Both the position numbers and the translations under genes were made by a program. This document shows, piece by piece, positions 41,570 to 46,717 of a stretch of DNA of 64,000 bases. The stretch lies in the sequence record PP488543.1; one strand, given 5' to 3'. Origin of the DNA: Escherichia phage BP9. Below the pieces are notes generated by a model that was not told the DNA's origin, did no database searches, and saw nothing but the letters and a program-made list of their open reading frames with translations. Each line of letters begins with the position of its first letter. Positions within the stretch are counted from its first letter, which is position 1.

Positions 41570-42946
41570 ATGCCATATTTAGATAAGGTGGTAGATGTTA
41601 CAGTTAACCTCGGAACCCAGCCTATTGACACTGTAGGTTTCGAAACTCCCCTGTTCATCGCTATCCACAACAACTTTACTGAGCGAGCTCGCGTATATGC
41701 GGAGCTGGATCAGATGGTGGAAGATGGTTTCGCACAAGGCTCTGCAGCGTATGAGTTTGCAGCAAAAGCTTTTGGTGGTGTATTCCCTCCACAATACGTT
41801 ATGATCGGCAGACAGGCCAAAGAAAAGACCACTGTAGATTTTAAAGGTATTGCTGCCGCAGCTGATACCGATGTCGTAATGACTATTGCAAAAGGTAGCT
41901 ACAATACTTCTTTGATAGTGCCTATCTCTGGTGGAACAGGTGCAACTCAGATTGCAGAGTCAATGAAGACTAAAATTGAAGCAGATGATAGCTTGAACGA
42001 TATCACTGTAGAGGCTGCTGAAGGTGTTCTCACCATCACTGGTAACTGCACTGTTGGTTATCATACTGGTAACTACACAATCAAAAATATCGCCAATGCT
42101 GAAAAACCTTCTACAGTAGTTGATAAGATCAATGCTGAGCGTGACAATTGGTACTTCCTGTGCCATGAAGACCACACCGACATTGAAGCATGTGCCAAGT
42201 GGGCTCAGGCTAACTATAAGCTGCATGTCTACTCTACTGCAGAAGATGTGACTGGCAAAGATAATAACATCGCCACCAAACTGATGGCTGCACAGTATGA
42301 CAGTGTCGGCATGTACGATCCTCGTGCTGATAAAGATTTTCCAGAGGGTGGTATCGTAGGCGCTATGGCATCCAACGATCCGTCTTACGGTGACAGCTTG
42401 CACTTAAAACAGATGCCGGGTGTGATTGCACCATCTCTGACTTTAACTCAGCGCATGGCGATTTGGGAAAACCACGTTAACTTCTATAGAATGATTAACG
42501 GTGTTGGTGCTTTCTGGGAAGGTAAGTGTGCTTCAGGTCAGTATGCAGACGCTATTCGTTTTGCACACTGGATCAAGTTCAGATCTGAAGAATCTATGTT
42601 TGGGTACATGCATCGCCGCTCCAACATGGGTTTAAGCATGAAGATGTCTGATGATGATCTTCCGGTTATCAAGTCTGTCTTGATGAACAACCCAATCAAC
42701 ACTGGCATTAAGAATGGTGCGATCCTGACAGGTTTCGACGAAGACAATAATGTATTCTACGACCCGATCATTACAGTTCCTAAACGTGCAGAAATCCCAA
42801 CTAATCAGTTGGCTGCTCGTGTTCTGGAAGGTGTGAAAGTAGAACTGGTGTATAACAACGCCCTGCACTTCGTTCGTATCCGGATCAACGTCCTTCTGGA
42901 CAAAGTTGGTTCTAAATCCACCAATGCTGTTGCAATGACTGAATAA
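41570..42946 (+). CDS. tail sheath-like major tail protein
   Basis: 458 aa followed by 157-aa tube-like protein, frameshifted chaperone and tape measure; assignment by size and order. Confidence 0.5.
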   Translation: MPYLDKVVDVTVNLGTQPIDTVGFETPLFIAIHNNFTERARVYAELDQMVEDGFAQGSAAYEFAAKAFGGVFPPQYVMIGRQAKEKTTVDFKGIAAAADTDVVMTIAKGSYNTSLIVPISGGTGATQIAESMKTKIEADDSLNDITVEAAEGVLTITGNCTVGYHTGNYTIKNIANAEKPSTVVDKINAERDNWYFLCHEDHTDIEACAKWAQANYKLHVYSTAEDVTGKDNNIATKLMAAQYDSVGMYDPRADKDFPEGGIVGAMASNDPSYGDSLHLKQMPGVIAPSLTLTQRMAIWENHVNFYRMINGVGAFWEGKCASGQYADAIRFAHWIKFRSEESMFGYMHRRSNMGLSMKMSDDDLPVIKSVLMNNPINTGIKNGAILTGFDEDNNVFYDPIITVPKRAEIPTNQLAARVLEGVKVELVYNNALHFVRIRINVLLDKVGSKSTNAVAMTE

Positions 42947-42956
42947 GGAAGCCTAG

Positions 42957-43430
42957 ATGGAAACTCAAATTTTAACTCCTTATGCGTATGACCCTAAAAA
43001 GGTCAAACTGTATCTGATGCAGCAGCGTGTCACTGGCTTCGCTGCTGACACCAAGATTGTTGTTTCAAGAAACGAAGACAACATTTATCCTCACGTTGGT
43101 GTGGATGGTGAAATGTCTGCGGCTCTGTCCCGTAACCAATCTGGTGTTATGACTGTATCTTTGCAGAACACTTCTGTATGGAACGCTTACCTTTCTGACT
43201 GGCAGAAACAGGCATCGATCACTGGCCTGGTATTCTTCCCGGTTCTGCTGGAAGGTAGCCAGGGCCCCGGTATTTCCACAATCGGTTGGATCCAGAAACA
43301 GCCTGACCTGACTTACGGAACCGAAGTAGGTCAACTGGACTGGGATATCGGTATTCTGGATGCATGGCTCAACCGTGACAACATCACTGGTGCTCTCACT
43401 GGCCTCGCAGGTCTTGCAGGTATTATCTAA
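42957..43430 (+). CDS. tail tube-like protein
   Basis: 157 aa directly after sheath-like gene, followed by terminator. Confidence 0.5.
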   Translation: METQILTPYAYDPKKVKLYLMQQRVTGFAADTKIVVSRNEDNIYPHVGVDGEMSAALSRNQSGVMTVSLQNTSVWNAYLSDWQKQASITGLVFFPVLLEGSQGPGISTIGWIQKQPDLTYGTEVGQLDWDIGILDAWLNRDNITGALTGLAGLAGII

Positions 43431-43448
43431 GGGCACACTTTAGCATAG

Positions 43449-43473
43449 GCCTCACCTTCGGGTGGGGCTTTTT
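43449..43473 (+). terminator. rho-independent terminator
   Basis: GCCTCACC-TTCG-GGTGGGGC followed by TTTTT. Confidence 0.7.
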
Positions 43474-43520
43474 GCTTTTATGGTTTTGACACACGTTCTT
43501 GAATTGCTTGAAAGGTTAAA

Positions 43521-43549
43521 TTGACAATGCACCATAATCATGGTAAAAT
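43521..43549 (+). promoter_or_regulatory. sigma70-like promoter with extended -10
   Basis: TTGACA (43521-43526) N17 TAAAAT (43544-43549) within TGGTAAAATA. Confidence 0.6.
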
Positions 43550-43592
43550 ACACAAATATGGTGCACAACATGACTAATAAGGATGCTATAAA

Positions 43593-44066
43593 ATGGCTAT
43601 AAACTTTAGACCTACAACAGAGATTGATTTAGCAGGGCACAACTTTGTGATCACCCACTGGGGACCGATGAAAGCAATGAAAAATATGCCTAAAATCGGT
43701 AAGATTGTGGCTGTCCCGCTAGGTGCTATCGGTGGATCTATTATCTCAGGTGGTCAGAATATGGCAGAGGTCCTTCCTACTGCTCTGGCTTACCTGTTCC
43801 AAGAACTTGATGATAACTCTATTGAAGAGTTATTTAAAATTTTGTTCGAAGATATTACCGTAGATGGTGTGGATAAGCTTAACCCGGATGTTGTGTTTGC
43901 AGGGCATCTGCTGGAGATGATTAAGCTGGCAGGTAAGGTTCTGGAGGTTAACTACGGCTGTTTTTTCACACAAGACGGTTTAGGAAGCCTTCTGGAGATG
44001 TTACAGCAGATGGGTATGATTCAGCAGGTGAACAACCTGGATCAGACTCCGGAAGAGCAGGAATAA
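43593..44066 (+). CDS. tail assembly chaperone (gpG/gpE-like), zero-frame product
   Basis: 157 aa between tube and tape-measure genes; contains slippery heptamer. Confidence 0.6.
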   Translation: MAINFRPTTEIDLAGHNFVITHWGPMKAMKNMPKIGKIVAVPLGAIGGSIISGGQNMAEVLPTALAYLFQELDDNSIEELFKILFEDITVDGVDKLNPDVVFAGHLLEMIKLAGKVLEVNYGCFFTQDGLGSLLEMLQQMGMIQQVNNLDQTPEEQE

Positions 44067-44326
44067 GCAAGGTTGTTGTGAGGGCCAGTGAGTGGGCAGC
44101 CAAGAACAGTTCACTAAACTGGTTCGACTTTCTTTGGTGCAGGGTGCTCAAGAATTTCAAAGGGGAAAATTTTGAATCGCTAAATCTTGCAGATATGGCG
44201 TATTTCCTGAAGCTCTGTGAGTATCTTGATATCGAAGAATTCCTAGATACCGTCCAAAACAGGGAAATGGAGCGGGAGCAGAAGGCTGCCGCAGCTGCTG
44301 CGAAAGCTAAGCGCAGGAGAGGATAA
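43967..44326 (+). CDS. -1 frameshift extension of tail assembly chaperone (gpGT/E+E'-like)
   Basis: -1 frame open from 43952 to 44326 and overlaps chaperone 3' end; slippery TTTTTTC at 43961-43967 in correct register; predicted fusion about 244 aa. Confidence 0.55.
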   Translation, partial: HTRRFRKPSGDVTADGYDSAGEQPGSDSGRAGISKVVVRASEWAAKNSSLNWFDFLWCRVLKNFKGENFESLNLADMAYFLKLCEYLDIEEFLDTVQNREMEREQKAAAAAAKAKRRRG

Positions 44327-44331
44327 TCTAA

Positions 44332-44369
44332 GGGCCGGATTCCTTTTCTGGGATCTGGCCCTTTTTATT
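44332..44369 (+). terminator. terminator-like hairpin
   Basis: AGGGCC...GGCCCT stem followed by TTTTTATTA. Confidence 0.4.
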
Positions 44370-44380
44370 ATGAGGAAACC

Positions 44381-46717
44381 ATGGCTACAAACAAAATAGT
44401 TGCCACAACAGTCAACAAGATTGGCTTTGAGATAGAGAACTCCTCCTACAAAAAAGCTGTAGAGAAAATTCGCAGTATTGGGAGGGAGTTCAGGAAACTG
44501 GGCGAAGATTTTAACTCAGCCAACCCCATGAGTAGATGGCAGGCGGTAGCTGTTAAAACCCAGCAGACAATGCAGCGGGTTGCCAGACAGCAATCTCAGG
44601 CAAATGCTAAGCTGCACAGGGAGAGCGTAGCACAGGCCAAGAAAGAGGCTGCAGTAAGGGCTGCAATAGAACGTAGGGAGAATGCGAGACGTAAACAAGC
44701 TGTAGGTAATCTTACCGCTAAAAATCCAGAAATGGCTAGGATGCGTAAGTTCTACCAGCAGCAAGCTAAAGAGGCCAAAAAGGCTGCCAAATCTGCACCA
44801 GTGTCTTACGGTGGTTATAAGGCACCTAAGGCAAGAGTTCTTGCTAACGCCAAGTCTTTCAGATATATTCCAGGCAACCCGAACATGGGTGGGGTGGCTT
44901 CAGATCCTAATCTTGTTAAAGCCCAGACCGCTGCCATGAACCGTTATCACAGACAGCTAAGAAGGGACGGTAAAGCTGGTATGGATAATAGGCTTATGTC
45001 GGATCGTGAGGCAAGAAGAACCCACCTCTACAACTCCGCGATAAGACTTTCTGCCAAGTATGGTGCCGGATTCCGTGGAAGCTTGCCAGGATACTCAGAG
45101 TTAGAGTCCAGGTTTGCTCGCGGGGAGATGAAAAAGTCAACATTTAACGCCCACTTGTCAGCGCTGCAGTCTGGATTTAAAAGCGCCACCAGCCAAACGC
45201 TTACACTAGGCGATGCCATGAGAGACTTACGTAGATCTGTTATTAATGCAACAGCTGCGTATACAGCTTTTTCTGGATTTGCTGCGGTTAACAGATCCGG
45301 TCACATGATGGAGGGGGCAAGTGCTGCTCTTACTGCTGTTACTGGAGATCCAAACAAAGCCAACAGTGAGGTTGCGTTTGTCCAGCAAGAGGCTATGCGT
45401 CTTGGTTTTGATCTCAAATCTGGTCTTCAAGGTTACGCCCAGATGTCGGTAAACGCCAAAAACCAGATGACAAATCAGGAAGTGCATGAGCTGTTTTCTG
45501 CATACTCCCAGTATGCTGCTGCTTATGGTGCTGATGAGGTAAAATATCAGCGCGGTATCATGGCAATCCAGCAGATGCTTGGCAAGGGACAAGTAATGTC
45601 CGAGGAACTGAAGCAACAGCTTGCTGAAGCATTACCTGGTGCATACGAACCTTTTATCAAGGCCACCAAAGAGGCTTTTGGTCTTTCTGAACTCTCCATG
45701 GATCAGTTCATGGACATGATGAAGAAAGGTGAGGTTAAAACAGCCAAGATCATGAAGTATGTGGCTAAGTACATGAACGAGGCATCTGCAGCTGGTTATG
45801 AAAGAATGCAGAAGTCTAACGTGCTGGCAGAAAACAGACTGAAAACCTTCATTGAACTGACTCGTCAGAAACTGTTCACCCGTTGGTCTGACGAACTAAC
45901 AGAGTTCTATTATACACTAATCCGCACTGGTGAGACTCTGCAATTTGTGTGGGATGCCTCTGGTGATTTTGTTAGCGGGTTTGTGAGAGGCCTTAACTGG
46001 GTAGTTGGTGAACTAAACAACACTATAGTCAAGATCCGCATGTTTTTCCTTGAATGGGGGATTAAATGGGGATTCATAACAGCTAAGACGAAGGAATATT
46101 CTGAAGAGCTTCATGACACCTTTAGCTATGCTAGATGGGCAGGGTTTGCTGCTGCCATCATGCTGGTAGTCAACGCCCTAACAAAAGGTTTTGTCATGGC
46201 ATCCATGCTTGTAAAAACCTTTAAATTCCTTAACTCTTTAAGAGGTGCAGCTGGAGCAGCTGGTGTCGCTACTGCAGAAGGATCTGGTGGTGGAGCTCCG
46301 GCAGGAAAAGGTGGAGGTGGCCTCAAGACACCTGGTGGCAAAGTTGGTCTGCTTGGTAAGCTGGGTATTATCGGTACAATATTAAGCGCAGGGGAATTAT
46401 TTAATGACCGTTTCAACCCACTAAGTGAAAGAAATCAGCAGCTGGACACTATCAGCGATATGATTCGCAAAGATATCATATCAGGAGGTAACGGGTTTGT
46501 TAATCCTTTGGACACCTTACCGGGCGGGACTCTTCCGTTGCCAGGTGGCCCCGGTTTTGCTTCTCAATTAAGAACTATGGAAATGCTACCTTTAGAGATC
46601 AGTGATGGGAAAATCACGATTTCAATAGATGAGGGTGAGTTTAACAAAATATTTGATGCAAAACTTGAGTGGGAGAACAATAAAGATATCAACTTCATGT
46701 CTACCGACCTTTGGTAA
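44381..46717 (+). CDS. tail tape measure protein
   Basis: 778 aa, helical N-terminus, Gly-rich hydrophobic central segment, position after chaperone frameshift. Confidence 0.85.
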   Translation: MATNKIVATTVNKIGFEIENSSYKKAVEKIRSIGREFRKLGEDFNSANPMSRWQAVAVKTQQTMQRVARQQSQANAKLHRESVAQAKKEAAVRAAIERRENARRKQAVGNLTAKNPEMARMRKFYQQQAKEAKKAAKSAPVSYGGYKAPKARVLANAKSFRYIPGNPNMGGVASDPNLVKAQTAAMNRYHRQLRRDGKAGMDNRLMSDREARRTHLYNSAIRLSAKYGAGFRGSLPGYSELESRFARGEMKKSTFNAHLSALQSGFKSATSQTLTLGDAMRDLRRSVINATAAYTAFSGFAAVNRSGHMMEGASAALTAVTGDPNKANSEVAFVQQEAMRLGFDLKSGLQGYAQMSVNAKNQMTNQEVHELFSAYSQYAAAYGADEVKYQRGIMAIQQMLGKGQVMSEELKQQLAEALPGAYEPFIKATKEAFGLSELSMDQFMDMMKKGEVKTAKIMKYVAKYMNEASAAGYERMQKSNVLAENRLKTFIELTRQKLFTRWSDELTEFYYTLIRTGETLQFVWDASGDFVSGFVRGLNWVVGELNNTIVKIRMFFLEWGIKWGFITAKTKEYSEELHDTFSYARWAGFAAAIMLVVNALTKGFVMASMLVKTFKFLNSLRGAAGAAGVATAEGSGGGAPAGKGGGGLKTPGGKVGLLGKLGIIGTILSAGELFNDRFNPLSERNQQLDTISDMIRKDIISGGNGFVNPLDTLPGGTLPLPGGPGFASQLRTMEMLPLEISDGKITISIDEGEFNKIFDAKLEWENNKDINFMSTDLW

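What the first reader, a model, noticed from the sequence alone, without database searches (positions are those of the whole stretch)
43952..44326. Programmed -1 ribosomal frameshift in the tail assembly chaperone gene
The chaperone ORF contains the slippery heptamer T TTT TTC at 43961-43967 in the correct register, and the -1 frame is open from 43952 to 44326, extending to just before the tape-measure gene. This matches the conserved G/GT-type chaperone frameshift, but the ORF track shows only two separate ORFs.
Basis: partly seen in the sequence, partly recalled or inferred. Interest (0 to 1): 0.5.

Follow-up and report, generated by a model that had tools for sequence, protein, structure and literature searches.

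The report
Tail chaperone -1 ribosomal frameshift site
This rV5-like coliphage almost certainly makes a long and a short tail assembly chaperone from one gene by a -1 ribosomal slip at T_TTT_TTC; this is the textbook lambda G/GT arrangement, real and well conserved but left unannotated in this phage group.

Summary
T_TTT_TTC lies at 43961-43967 in the X_XXY_YYZ register of the chaperone ORF (43593-44066). The -1 frame is open from 43952 to 44326, between the tail tube gene and the tape-measure gene.

The window is an rV5-like Vequintavirus. On its own the heptamer is weak evidence: about 0.1 would be expected by chance in the 38-codon overlap. Comparison settles it.

- In 42 distinct homologous sites (chaperone identity down to 23-28%), the three synonymous positions that create the heptamer never vary. 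NNT-TTT-TTC occurs 42/42 times, across TGT, CCT, AGT and TCT. The invariant Tyr two codons upstream is TAC 27 / TAT 15.
- One lineage (Rheinheimera phages) lost this heptamer and carries G_GGA_AAG three codons downstream.
- The -1 frame stays open for 76-132 codons in all 55 distinct loci and encodes a conserved domain.
- An Arg-Phe-Arg motif right after the slip is kept through different Arg codons.
- No start codon for the downstream ORF is conserved. Several relatives have none.

The homologous site in Felix O1-like phage Moogle is already annotated as a joined CDS, and a 2025 paper describes it in two sister families. None of the roughly 20 rV5-like and related (Vequintavirinae/Stephanstirmvirinae) records I opened annotates it. 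Verdict: interpretation supported, known kind, low novelty. There is no experimental proof.

The parts
42957..43430 (+). Tail tube gene (context: upstream neighbour of the chaperone)
   Evidence: ORF. Pfam KPP10_Orf10 and PHROG 280 virion structural protein. Annotated as tail tube or virion structural protein in relatives.
43447..43470 (+). Terminator-like hairpin followed by a T run, after the tube gene
   Evidence: A terminator is annotated at the equivalent place in phage Murica.
43521..43549 (+). Sigma-70-like promoter (TTGACA, 17 nt spacer, TAAAAT, with TG extension) in front of the chaperone gene
   Evidence: Matches 11 of 12 consensus positions. Annotated as promoter P51 in the rV5 RefSeq record. 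This is a consensus match only.
43593..44066 (+). Short chaperone form (TAC-N, the gpG analogue): 157 aa, 17.3 kDa, zero-frame product
   Evidence: ORF. Pfam PF21822 Phage_TAC_15 E=2.3e-23 over residues 15-129; PHROG 3840 tail assembly chaperone E=5e-69. Mass.
43943..43947 (+). GGAGG, a Shine-Dalgarno-like candidate 5' stimulator, 13 nt upstream of the heptamer
   Evidence: Sequence. GGAGG, GGAG or GAGG sits at a fixed 13-14 nt spacing in 30 of 44 distinct relatives. This is confounded with the conserved Leu-Glu-Val coding, so a stimulatory role is inferred, not shown.
43961..43967 (+). Slippery heptamer T_TTT_TTC (Cys123-Phe124-Phe125), the proposed -1 shift site
   Evidence: Invariant at its synonymous positions in 42/42 distinct homologous sites. 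U_UU.U_UU.C is among the efficient E. coli heptamers (PMC4066793).
43967..44326 (+). The -1 frame extension (gpT analogue), 119 codons plus stop. It comprises an Arg-Phe-Arg motif, a Gly/Ser/Asp-rich linker, then a conserved domain of about 70 aa. Joined to 43593-43967 it gives the 244-aa, 27.1-kDa long form (TAC-NC).
   Evidence: Translation. Alignment of 24 lineages. PHROG 10409 (unknown function) E=1.9e-51 for the 82-aa ORF and 8.5e-51 for the 119-aa extension. Masses.
44078..44326 (+). The 82-aa ORF as called by gene finders (GTG start). On this reading it is the 3' part of the frameshifted coding sequence, not a separate gene.
   Evidence: Annotated as a hypothetical protein in relatives. 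The start codon is not conserved and cuts into the conserved ISKVV segment.
44330..44363 (+). Terminator-like hairpin (14 bp) followed by a T run, between the chaperone unit and the tape-measure gene
   Evidence: Annotated as a rho-independent terminator in rV5 and Murica.
44381..46717 (+). Tape measure protein gene (context: downstream neighbour)
   Evidence: ORF. Pfam TMP_3 E=1.6e-18.

Best explanation
A programmed -1 ribosomal frameshift produces two tail assembly chaperones from one mRNA.

Most ribosomes read 43593-44066 and make the 157-aa short form. A minority pause with tRNA-Phe on UUU in the P site and tRNA-Phe on UUC in the A site. Both tRNAs slip back one base on U_UUU_UUC (43961-67), re-pair with UUU/UUU, and the ribosome continues in the -1 frame to 44326. 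The product is a 244-aa protein with the same N-terminal chaperone domain (residues 1-125) followed by Arg-Phe-Arg, a flexible Gly/Ser/Asp linker and a conserved C-terminal domain.

By analogy with lambda gpG/gpGT, the shared N-terminal domain would coat the tape-measure protein. The -1-encoded domain would recruit the tail tube protein. The fixed translational ratio would set the stoichiometry needed for tail assembly, and neither form would end up in the virion.

Shown here: the sequence anatomy, the nucleotide-level conservation of the site, selection on the -1 frame, and the lack of an independent start.

Inferred: the actual slip and its efficiency, the stimulatory role of the upstream GGAGG, and the binding partners.
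For: 1. Anatomy. The heptamer is in register and the -1 ORF spans from 9 nt upstream of it to 55 nt before the tape-measure start. The genes lie between the tube and tape-measure genes.
2. Synonymous-site conservation. In 42 distinct neighbourhoods the codon before Phe-Phe always ends in T although it is TGT, CCT, AGT or TCT. Phe1 is always TTT and Phe2 always TTC. The invariant Tyr nearby is TAC 27 / TAT 15, the nearby Gly is GGC 30 / GGA 4 / GGT 3, and the window uses TTT and TTC about 50:50.
3. Site turnover. Rheinheimera phage Barba5A lacks Phe-Phe and has lambda's own heptamer G_GGA_AAG in register three codons downstream, still inside the -1 overlap.
4. Open frame. The -1 frame is open for 76-132 codons after the site in 55/55 distinct loci. 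Stop density in the -1 frame upstream is 656 per 7,184 codons, and the +1 frame closes within 10-127 nt.
5. Frame switch in conservation. In 22 Vequintavirinae-type sequences, the 8 codons after the heptamer are best conserved in the -1 frame (0.64, against 0.55 for frame 0). Upstream, frame 0 wins (0.70 against 0.39). Arg-Phe-Arg is kept through AGG, AGA, CGC and CGG codons while the zero-frame residues change.
6. No conserved start. Klebsiella, Erwinia, Pectobacterium and Pantoea relatives and two metagenomic relatives have no ATG, GTG or TTG between the heptamer and the conserved Trp. Gene callers pick starts at ten different positions.
7. Heptamer efficiency. U_UU.U_UU.C is among the efficient, under-represented heptamers in E. 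coli (PMC4066793).
8. Homologous precedent. The homologous Phage_TAC_15 gene of phage Moogle carries the same Asn-Phe-Gly-Ser-Phe-Phe / T_TTT_TTC motif and is deposited as a joined 'tape measure chaperone' CDS. A conserved GTTTTT frameshift is described for Vandenendeviridae and Andersonviridae (PMC12846349).
Against: - There is no experimental evidence of the fusion protein for any rV5-like phage. The rV5 proteomics paper does not mention these genes, and chaperones are not expected in virions.
- No convincing downstream stem-loop or pseudoknot exists in this phage: z=-1.3 over 100 nt, z=0.1 over 53 nt, and the structure starts 19 nt away. Rfam finds nothing.
- The slip site lies 33 codons before the zero-frame stop, further than in lambda.
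- The Phe-Phe motif is itself conserved at the protein level, so part of the nucleotide conservation is not independent of coding.
- A GTG with a weak AAGG lies 12 nt after the chaperone stop, so some independent or coupled translation of an 82-aa product cannot be excluded in this particular phage.
Confidence: 0.86

Rival explanations
1. These are two separate genes. The downstream ORF is translated on its own from GTG 44078, by a weak ribosome-binding site or by termination-reinitiation after the chaperone stop. The heptamer is a by-product of the conserved Cys-Phe-Phe residues.
For: GTG 44078 lies 12 nt after the TAA of the chaperone, with AAGG 5 nt upstream. Nearly all public records annotate two separate ORFs.
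Against: - The start is not conserved. The 70%-identical relative L025 has TTG without a Shine-Dalgarno sequence, and six lineages have no ATG, GTG or TTG at all before the conserved Trp.
- Conserved -1 residues (Arg-Phe-Arg, ISKVV) lie upstream of 44078.
- The -1 frame is kept open through the roughly 100-nt overlap in all 55 loci.
- Synonymous sites of the heptamer are invariant.
- One lineage has a replacement heptamer.
Confidence: 0.05
2. The long form arises from transcriptional slippage of RNA polymerase on the T6 run, which would give mRNAs with one U fewer or two U more, rather than from ribosomal slippage.
For: The site is a homopolymer run of six T, which is conserved as a run. Poly-T/A runs are known slippage sites, and UUUUUUU is avoided in all frames in E. 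coli (PMC4066793). A non-frameshift route has been proposed for the chaperones of T4-like phages (cited in PMC12846349).
Against: - Efficient bacterial transcriptional slippage is described for runs of about 9 A or T (PMC5009743). Six is short.
- The Rheinheimera lineage uses G_GGA_AAG, which has no long homopolymer.
- An SD-like element sits at a fixed 13-14 nt spacing in 30/44 relatives. Some relatives have hairpins 6-9 nt downstream. Both are features of ribosomal stimulators.
Confidence: 0.05
3. Frameshifting occurs, but elsewhere in the 115-nt overlap, at a non-canonical site closer to the chaperone stop.
For: In lambda the shift is at the very end of G. The overlap extends 99 nt beyond the heptamer.
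Against: - There is no other canonical heptamer in register anywhere in the ORF.
- Conservation of the -1 peptide starts immediately after the heptamer.
- The -1 frame opens only 9 nt before the heptamer in this phage, and the heptamer is the invariant element.
Confidence: 0.03

Closest known systems
Phage lambda gpG/gpGT tail assembly chaperones (Levin, Hendrix & Casjens 1993; Xu, Hendrix & Duda 2004, 2013, 2014; summarised in PMC5009743)
   Same: - Two overlapping ORFs lie between the major tail (tube) gene and the tape-measure gene.
- The downstream ORF is in the -1 frame and lacks its own conserved start.
- A canonical heptamer sits in register.
- A short abundant form and a long rare form share the N-terminal domain.
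- One relative here (Rheinheimera phage) even uses lambda's G_GGA_AAG.
   Different: - No detectable sequence relationship to gpG; the chaperone belongs to Pfam Phage_TAC_15.
- This is a contractile-tailed (myovirus) phage.
- The heptamer is U_UUU_UUC.
- The shift is 33 codons before the zero-frame stop, so the short form has its own conserved 32-aa acidic tail that the long form lacks.
- The ratio and the binding partners are untested.
Felix O1-like phages (Andersonviridae), e.g. Citrobacter phage Moogle 'tape measure chaperone' joined CDS (KM236239; PMC4319497)
   Same: - Same Pfam family: PF21822, E=7.5e-20 for Moogle and 2.3e-23 here.
- BLASTP E=8e-07 between the two proteins.
- Same aligned motif: N-F-G-S-F-F in Moogle, N-Y-G-C-F-F here.
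- Same heptamer T_TTT_TTC in register.
- Same -1 extension ending just before the tape-measure gene.
   Different: - Only 24% identity.
- The Moogle site is 15 codons before the stop rather than 33.
- The Moogle frameshift is annotated in GenBank, whereas none of the rV5-like or related records opened here annotates it.
Pakpunavirus/Vandenendeviridae TAC-N/TAC-NC frameshift with invariant GTTTTT motif (phage Adele, PMC12846349, 2025)
   Same: - Same argument and the same kind of site: a poly-T slippery motif near the end of TAC-N.
- An uninterrupted -1 frame across divergent genera.
- A downstream 'hypothetical protein' reinterpreted as the C-terminal domain.
- The paper notes that these families are related to Vequintavirinae.
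   Different: That paper tests Vandenendeviridae and Andersonviridae only. It makes no claim about the chaperone locus of Vequintavirinae or Stephanstirmvirinae. I did not compare the sequences directly.
Phage P2 E / E+E' tail chaperone frameshift (Christie et al. 2002; recalled from memory, not checked here)
   Same: It is a myovirus chaperone pair upstream of the tape-measure gene, made by a -1 shift on a run of six T. As I recall the heptamer is T_TTT_TTG.
   Different: I expect a different protein family and a temperate P2-type tail module; I did not compare the sequences.

Membership tests
G/GT-type tail assembly chaperone pair with programmed -1 frameshift (Xu, Hendrix & Duda 2004) | The gene pair lies directly between the major tail/tube gene and the tape-measure gene | tested here: met
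   Tube 42957-43430, chaperone 43593-44066, -1 ORF to 44326, tape measure 44381-46717.
G/GT-type tail assembly chaperone pair with programmed -1 frameshift (Xu, Hendrix & Duda 2004) | The downstream ORF overlaps the 3' end of the upstream ORF in the -1 frame, and this arrangement is conserved in relatives | tested here: met
   The overlap is 115 nt here. In relatives it is 85-247 nt, with a 140-296 nt extension in 55 distinct loci, and the +1 frame is closed.
G/GT-type tail assembly chaperone pair with programmed -1 frameshift (Xu, Hendrix & Duda 2004) | A canonical slippery heptamer X_XXY_YYZ lies in the zero-frame register inside the overlap | tested here: met
   T_TTT_TTC at 43961-67. It is invariant in 42/42 distinct sites, with G_GGA_AAG in one further lineage.
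G/GT-type tail assembly chaperone pair with programmed -1 frameshift (Xu, Hendrix & Duda 2004) | The downstream ORF has no translation start of its own | tested here: inconclusive
   This phage has GTG 44078 with a weak AAGG upstream. That start is not conserved, and six lineages have no possible start at all.
G/GT-type tail assembly chaperone pair with programmed -1 frameshift (Xu, Hendrix & Duda 2004) | Two proteins sharing an N-terminus are made at a fixed low ratio (about 30:1 in lambda), both are needed for tail assembly, and both are absent from virions | not testable with these tools
   This needs western blotting or mass spectrometry and genetics. The lambda ratio is taken from PMC5009743.
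Pfam PF21822 Phage_TAC_15 (the chaperone family that includes the annotated frameshifting gene of phage Moogle) | Score above the curated gathering threshold (22 bits) over the whole domain | tested here: met
   83.6 bits, E=2.3e-23, residues 15-129 matching profile positions 2-125 of 127. Moogle scores 72.2 bits. The domain ends at the slip site.
Felix O1/Pakpunavirus-type TAC-N/TAC-NC locus (GTTTTT motif; PMC12846349) | An invariant G/N-TTTTT motif lies near the 3' end of TAC-N, with an uninterrupted -1 frame to just before the tape-measure gene | tested here: met
   The sequence is tgTTTTTTC here. The same heptamer and aligned motif occur in Moogle.
-1 frameshift cassettes with a 3' stimulatory RNA structure (dnaX- and IS-type) | A stable stem-loop or pseudoknot begins 5-9 nt downstream of the heptamer | tested here: not met
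   Window: z=0.1 over 53 nt and z=-1.3 over 100 nt, with the structure starting 19 nt away. Close relatives have z near 0. Only distant lineages (L014, L056, L069) have strong hairpins, z=-4 to -5. Rfam gives no hit.
-1 frameshift cassettes with a 5' Shine-Dalgarno-like stimulator (dnaX- and IS-type) | An SD-like sequence lies about 10-14 nt upstream of the heptamer (spacing recalled from Larsen et al. 1994, not checked) | tested here: inconclusive
   GGAGG lies at 43943-47 with a 13-nt spacer. GGAGG, GGAG or GAGG is present at 13-14 nt in 30/44 relatives, but this overlaps the conserved Leu-Glu-Val codons.

The most novel reading that the evidence does not exclude
The Phage_TAC_15 family may use a variant of the G/GT design. 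[quoted passage not shown] The two forms would then carry alternative conserved C-terminal modules: a 32-aa acidic tail in the short form and a 119-aa linker plus domain in the long form. Different lineages would drive the same heptamer with interchangeable stimulators. In rV5-like phages this would be a 5' SD-like GGAGG at 13 nt with no 3' structure; Aeromonas-phage and some metagenomic lineages would use a strong 3' hairpin; Rheinheimera phages have a different heptamer. The short-form tail would then have a function of its own, for example occupying or regulating the site that the long form uses.
Probability: 0.25. Interest if true: 0.35.

Novelty: new member of a known kind. Interest (0 to 1): 0.25.

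Why it matters
The main value is for annotation. About 350 phage records in the collection searched hold a match to the -1 region, including rV5-, PVP-SE1-, phiTE-, phAPEC8- and phi92-like therapeutic and biocontrol phages. In the roughly 20 records I opened, this region is either a free-standing 'hypothetical protein' with an arbitrary start or is not annotated at all. It should be annotated as the C-terminal part of a frameshifted tail assembly chaperone.

The result also extends a frameshift site already recognised in Felix O1-like and Pakpunavirus phages to Vequintavirinae, Stephanstirmvirinae, Plateaulakevirus and Barbavirus. That makes the site ancient across this whole myovirus supergroup. 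The family offers a natural series for studying how stimulators and heptamers are exchanged around a fixed frameshift. It does not change the understanding of tail assembly or of recoding.

Tried and rejected
- **Downstream stimulatory structure.** I folded 53 and 100 nt of the window and 45/70 nt of 28 relatives against shuffles. Nothing is significant in the rV5 clade. Only some distant lineages have hairpins.
- **Rfam scan of 43400-44400** at E<=1: no hit.
- **Sequence search of the PDB** with profiles of the chaperone and of the -1 domain: no meaningful hit.
- **Natural in-frame fusions of the two domains.** The word-indexed search gave 3 short hits. The exhaustive search gave 17 hits. The 12 short ones (43-102 aa) start at different internal positions. 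The five long proteins (737-1311 aa) match only 38-57 residues each and look spurious. No fusion was found.
I did not pursue single-domain predictions, since they would not change the verdict.
- **Ungapped frame-by-frame identity across all clades** was uninformative because of indels between clades, and one set of labels was wrong. I redid it within the indel-free clade.
- **Literature search for a published rV5, Vequintavirus, phi92 or PVP-SE1 frameshift** found none.
- **Annotated joins in three records where only 'tail assembly chaperone' lay under the -1 match:** the downstream ORF was simply unannotated there.
Full report
**What the window is**

The 1.3 kb around the finding is 100% identical to Escherichia phage VB-EcoM-WM and about 99% identical to rV5 and more than 100 other Vequintavirus genomes. 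The local gene order is:

- tail sheath, 41570-42946
- tail tube, 42957-43430
- a 157-aa ORF, 43593-44066
- an 82-aa ORF, 44078-44326
- tape-measure protein, 44381-46717

The 157-aa protein is a tail assembly chaperone. It matches Pfam PF21822 Phage_TAC_15 at E=2.3e-23 over residues 15-129, and PHROG 3840 at E=5e-69. The tape-measure protein matches Pfam TMP_3. The 82-aa ORF matches only PHROGs of unknown function.

**Checking the observation**

- Zero-frame codons TGT (43959-61), TTT (43962-64) and TTC (43965-67) encode Cys123-Phe124-Phe125. T_TTT_TTC at 43961-67 is therefore in the X_XXY_YYZ register.
- The -1 frame has TAA at 43949-51 and is then open from 43952 to the TAA at 44324-26.
- This is the only in-register canonical heptamer in the chaperone ORF.
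- The +1 frame closes 25 nt after the chaperone stop.
- A shift at the heptamer would give a 244-aa, 27.1-kDa protein, against 17.3 kDa for the short form.

Taken alone this is weak evidence. In the long ORFs of the window, in-register heptamers occur at 44 of 15,724 codon positions. About 0.11 would be expected by chance in the 38-codon overlap.

**Comparative test**

I collected 14 annotated GenBank loci chosen to span the tblastn hit list. They cover Vequintavirus, Seunavirus, Mydovirus-like, Henunavirus, Avunavirus, W70, Certrevirus, Phapecoctavirus, Justusliebigvirus, 'Sichuanvirus', Plateaulakevirus and Barbavirus, with chaperone identity from 55% down to 28%. I added 56 IMG/VR loci. That scan selected on the protein motif ending in Phe-Phe, so it is informative about codon choice but not about the presence of Phe-Phe.

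The results were as follows.

1. **Synonymous sites of the heptamer never vary.** In 42 distinct 82-nt neighbourhoods the codon before Phe-Phe is TGT (18), CCT (11), TCT (7) or AGT (6). That is three different amino acids and four codons, and all end in T. Phe1 is TTT 42/42 and Phe2 is TTC 42/42. The invariant Tyr two codons upstream is TAC 27 / TAT 15, the Gly is GGC 30 / GGA 4 / GGT 3, and the Asn is AAC 34 / AAT 4. The window itself uses TTT:TTC at 341:323 and TGT:TGC at 106:106. Codon bias therefore does not explain the pattern.
2. **One lineage replaced the heptamer.** Rheinheimera phage Barba5A has His-Tyr-Gly-Cys-Leu-Thr instead of Asn-Tyr-Gly-Cys-Phe-Phe, so it has no T6C. It carries G_GGA_AAG in register three codons further on, inside its -1 overlap. 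Its -1 peptide (VFRIPSGDSG) aligns with the window's RFRKPSGDVT. Replacement of one canonical heptamer by another is what selection for frameshifting itself predicts.
3. **The -1 frame stays open.** After the heptamer it runs for 76-132 codons in all 55 distinct loci. Within the chaperone gene upstream of the heptamer, the -1 frame has 656 stops in 7,184 codons, about one per 11 codons. The +1 frame extends only 10-127 nt past the chaperone stop.
4. **The -1 product is a conserved protein.** It has an Arg-Phe-Arg motif right after the slip, a variable Gly/Ser/Asp/Pro-rich linker, and a domain of about 70 aa with a nearly invariant Trp.
5. **Conservation switches frame at the heptamer.** In the 22 distinct Vequintavirinae-type sequences without indels, the 8 codons after the heptamer are better conserved in the -1 frame (mean pairwise identity 0.64) than in frame 0 (0.55) or +1 (0.46). 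In the 12 codons before it, frame 0 wins (0.70 against 0.39-0.42). Arg-Phe-Arg is held through CGG-TTT-AGG, AGG-TTT-AGA, CGG-TTT-CGC and CGG-TTT-CGG, while the zero-frame residues change among Leu-Gly, Leu-Asp, Phe-Ala and Phe-Gly.
6. **No start codon is conserved for the downstream ORF.** The window's GTG 44078 has a weak AAGG upstream and cuts into the conserved ISKVV segment. The 70%-identical relative has TTG without a Shine-Dalgarno sequence. Six lineages have no ATG, GTG or TTG anywhere between the heptamer and the conserved Trp: Klebsiella K54_rec2, Erwinia SNUABM_55, Pectobacterium POP18, Pantoea F5M2A, L058 and L056.
7. **Gene callers disagree on the start.** An exhaustive search of 1.8 billion representative proteins finds the domain only as orphan ORFs of 43-102 aa that begin at ten different internal positions. 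GenBank annotators place the start anywhere from inside the chaperone to the middle of the domain. The rV5 RefSeq ORF50 starts at a CTG equivalent to 43958.

**Mechanism**

The best explanation is a tandem -1 slip of the P- and A-site tRNA-Phe on U_UUU_UUC.

- Sharma et al. (PMC4066793) place H_HH.U_UU.Y among the most efficient heptamers in E. coli. They list U_UU.U_UU.C among patterns that shift above 0.1% without stimulators, are under-represented in E. coli genes, and are used by IS elements.
- I found no convincing 3' stimulator in this phage. The 53 nt after the site fold no better than shuffles (z=0.1). The 100-nt fold has z=-1.3 and starts 19 nt downstream. Close relatives are the same. 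Rfam finds nothing.
- Some distant lineages do have strong hairpins 6-9 nt after the heptamer: Aeromonas phage phiA009 and L056 (z=-4 to -5), and L069 (z=-5).
- Upstream, GGAGG at 43943-47 lies 13 nt before the heptamer. GGAGG, GGAG or GAGG is present at a fixed 13-14 nt in 30 of 44 distinct relatives.
[quoted passage not shown] The stimulatory spacing of about 10-14 nt is from my memory of Larsen et al. 1994.
- This element overlaps conserved Leu-Glu-Val codons. I therefore treat it as a candidate stimulator only.

By analogy with lambda, gpG:gpGT is about 30:1, the G domain binds the tape-measure protein and the T domain binds the major tail protein (PMC5009743). The short and long forms here would cooperate in the same way. 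That step is inference.

**Rivals**

- **Independent translation from GTG 44078.** This cannot be excluded as a minor extra route in this phage. It is not the conserved way the domain is made.
- **Transcriptional slippage on T6.** This is unlikely. Efficient bacterial slippage is described for runs of about nine, the Rheinheimera heptamer has no such run, and the flanking features look like ribosomal stimulators.
- **A shift elsewhere in the overlap.** The absence of any other heptamer and the conservation of the -1 peptide directly after this one argue against it.

**Comparison with what is known**

This is the classic G/GT design. More specifically, the chaperone belongs to the same Pfam family as the chaperone of the Felix O1-like phage Moogle (72 bits; BLASTP E=8e-07 with NYGCFF aligned to NFGSFF).

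- Moogle has the same in-register T_TTT_TTC. GenBank carries a two-piece joined 'tape measure chaperone' CDS there, and the genome announcement mentions it (PMC4319497).
- A 2025 paper argues for a conserved -1 frameshift with an invariant GTTTTT motif in Vandenendeviridae and Andersonviridae. It notes that these families are related to Vequintavirinae. It makes no claim about the chaperone locus of Vequintavirinae or Stephanstirmvirinae (PMC12846349).
- Of the roughly 20 Vequintavirinae and Stephanstirmvirinae records I opened, none annotates a join. The feature names listed under about 120 hits show no duplicated chaperone entry.
- I found no paper describing the frameshift for these groups.

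One respect differs from lambda. The branch point is 33 codons before the zero-frame stop, at the end of the Pfam domain. The short form therefore has its own conserved 32-aa acidic tail (pI 4.05), and the long form replaces it with a basic 119-aa extension.

**Verdict**

It is a new, unannotated member of a well-known kind, with a homologous site already annotated in a sister family. Interest is low and lies mainly in correcting annotation.

Noticed in passing
window 43447-43470, 43521-43549, 44330-44363: The chaperone/-1 ORF pair looks like its own small transcription unit. A terminator-like hairpin follows the tube gene. A near-consensus sigma-70 promoter (TTGACA, 17 nt spacer, TG-TAAAAT) precedes the chaperone. 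A 14-bp terminator-like hairpin sits between the -1 ORF and the tape-measure gene. The rV5 and Murica records annotate the same elements. This could tune chaperone dosage relative to the tube and tape-measure proteins.
   Followed up: partly
L015 (Rheinheimera phage Barba5A) 1518-1524; also about 115 Barba phage records: This lineage has lost the Phe-Phe / T_TTT_TTC site and carries lambda's heptamer G_GGA_AAG three codons downstream. It also has a reverse-strand 'DNA binding protein' gene (L015 1820-2458) inserted between the -1 ORF and the tape-measure gene.
   Followed up: partly
L014 1548-1600, L056 1521-1570, L069 1560-1600, L070/L073/L077: Distant relatives (Aeromonas phage phiA009 and several metagenomic contigs) have strong hairpins starting 6-9 nt after the heptamer (z=-4 to -5). 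The rV5, PVP-SE1 and phiTE clades have none. This suggests lineage-specific exchange of frameshift stimulators.
   Followed up: partly
L013 1572-1581, L016, L017, L048, L057-L068: Stephanstirmvirinae-type relatives have two overlapping in-register heptamers, C_CCU_UUU and U_UUU_UUC (CCCTTTTTTC). Both are on the efficient list for E. coli.
   Followed up: no
window 30207-31146: The tRNA cluster is called differently by the two tools. ARAGORN reports six genes, including a 99-nt 'tRNA-???' with a four-base anticodon (30803-30901) and a tRNA-Ser (30614-30704). Rfam does not confirm either at gathering score. Rfam finds a tRNA at 30412-30496 that ARAGORN misses. No tRNA-Phe is encoded in the window.
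   Followed up: partly
GenBank MG0656xx records (hits H3-H6, H16-H19): About 20 records labelled 'Campylobacter phage' (host Campylobacter jejuni) are 99% identical to rV5-like coliphages across this region. Others match phi92-like phages. These look like mislabelled or contaminant assemblies.
   Followed up: no
L004 (rV5 RefSeq NC_011041) 1566-1934, equivalent to window 43958-44326: The rV5 reference annotates ORF50 as a 369-nt gene starting at a CTG inside the chaperone gene. This captures almost the whole -1 ORF but treats it as an independent overlapping gene. Other records start it anywhere up to the middle of the conserved domain, or omit it.
   Followed up: yes
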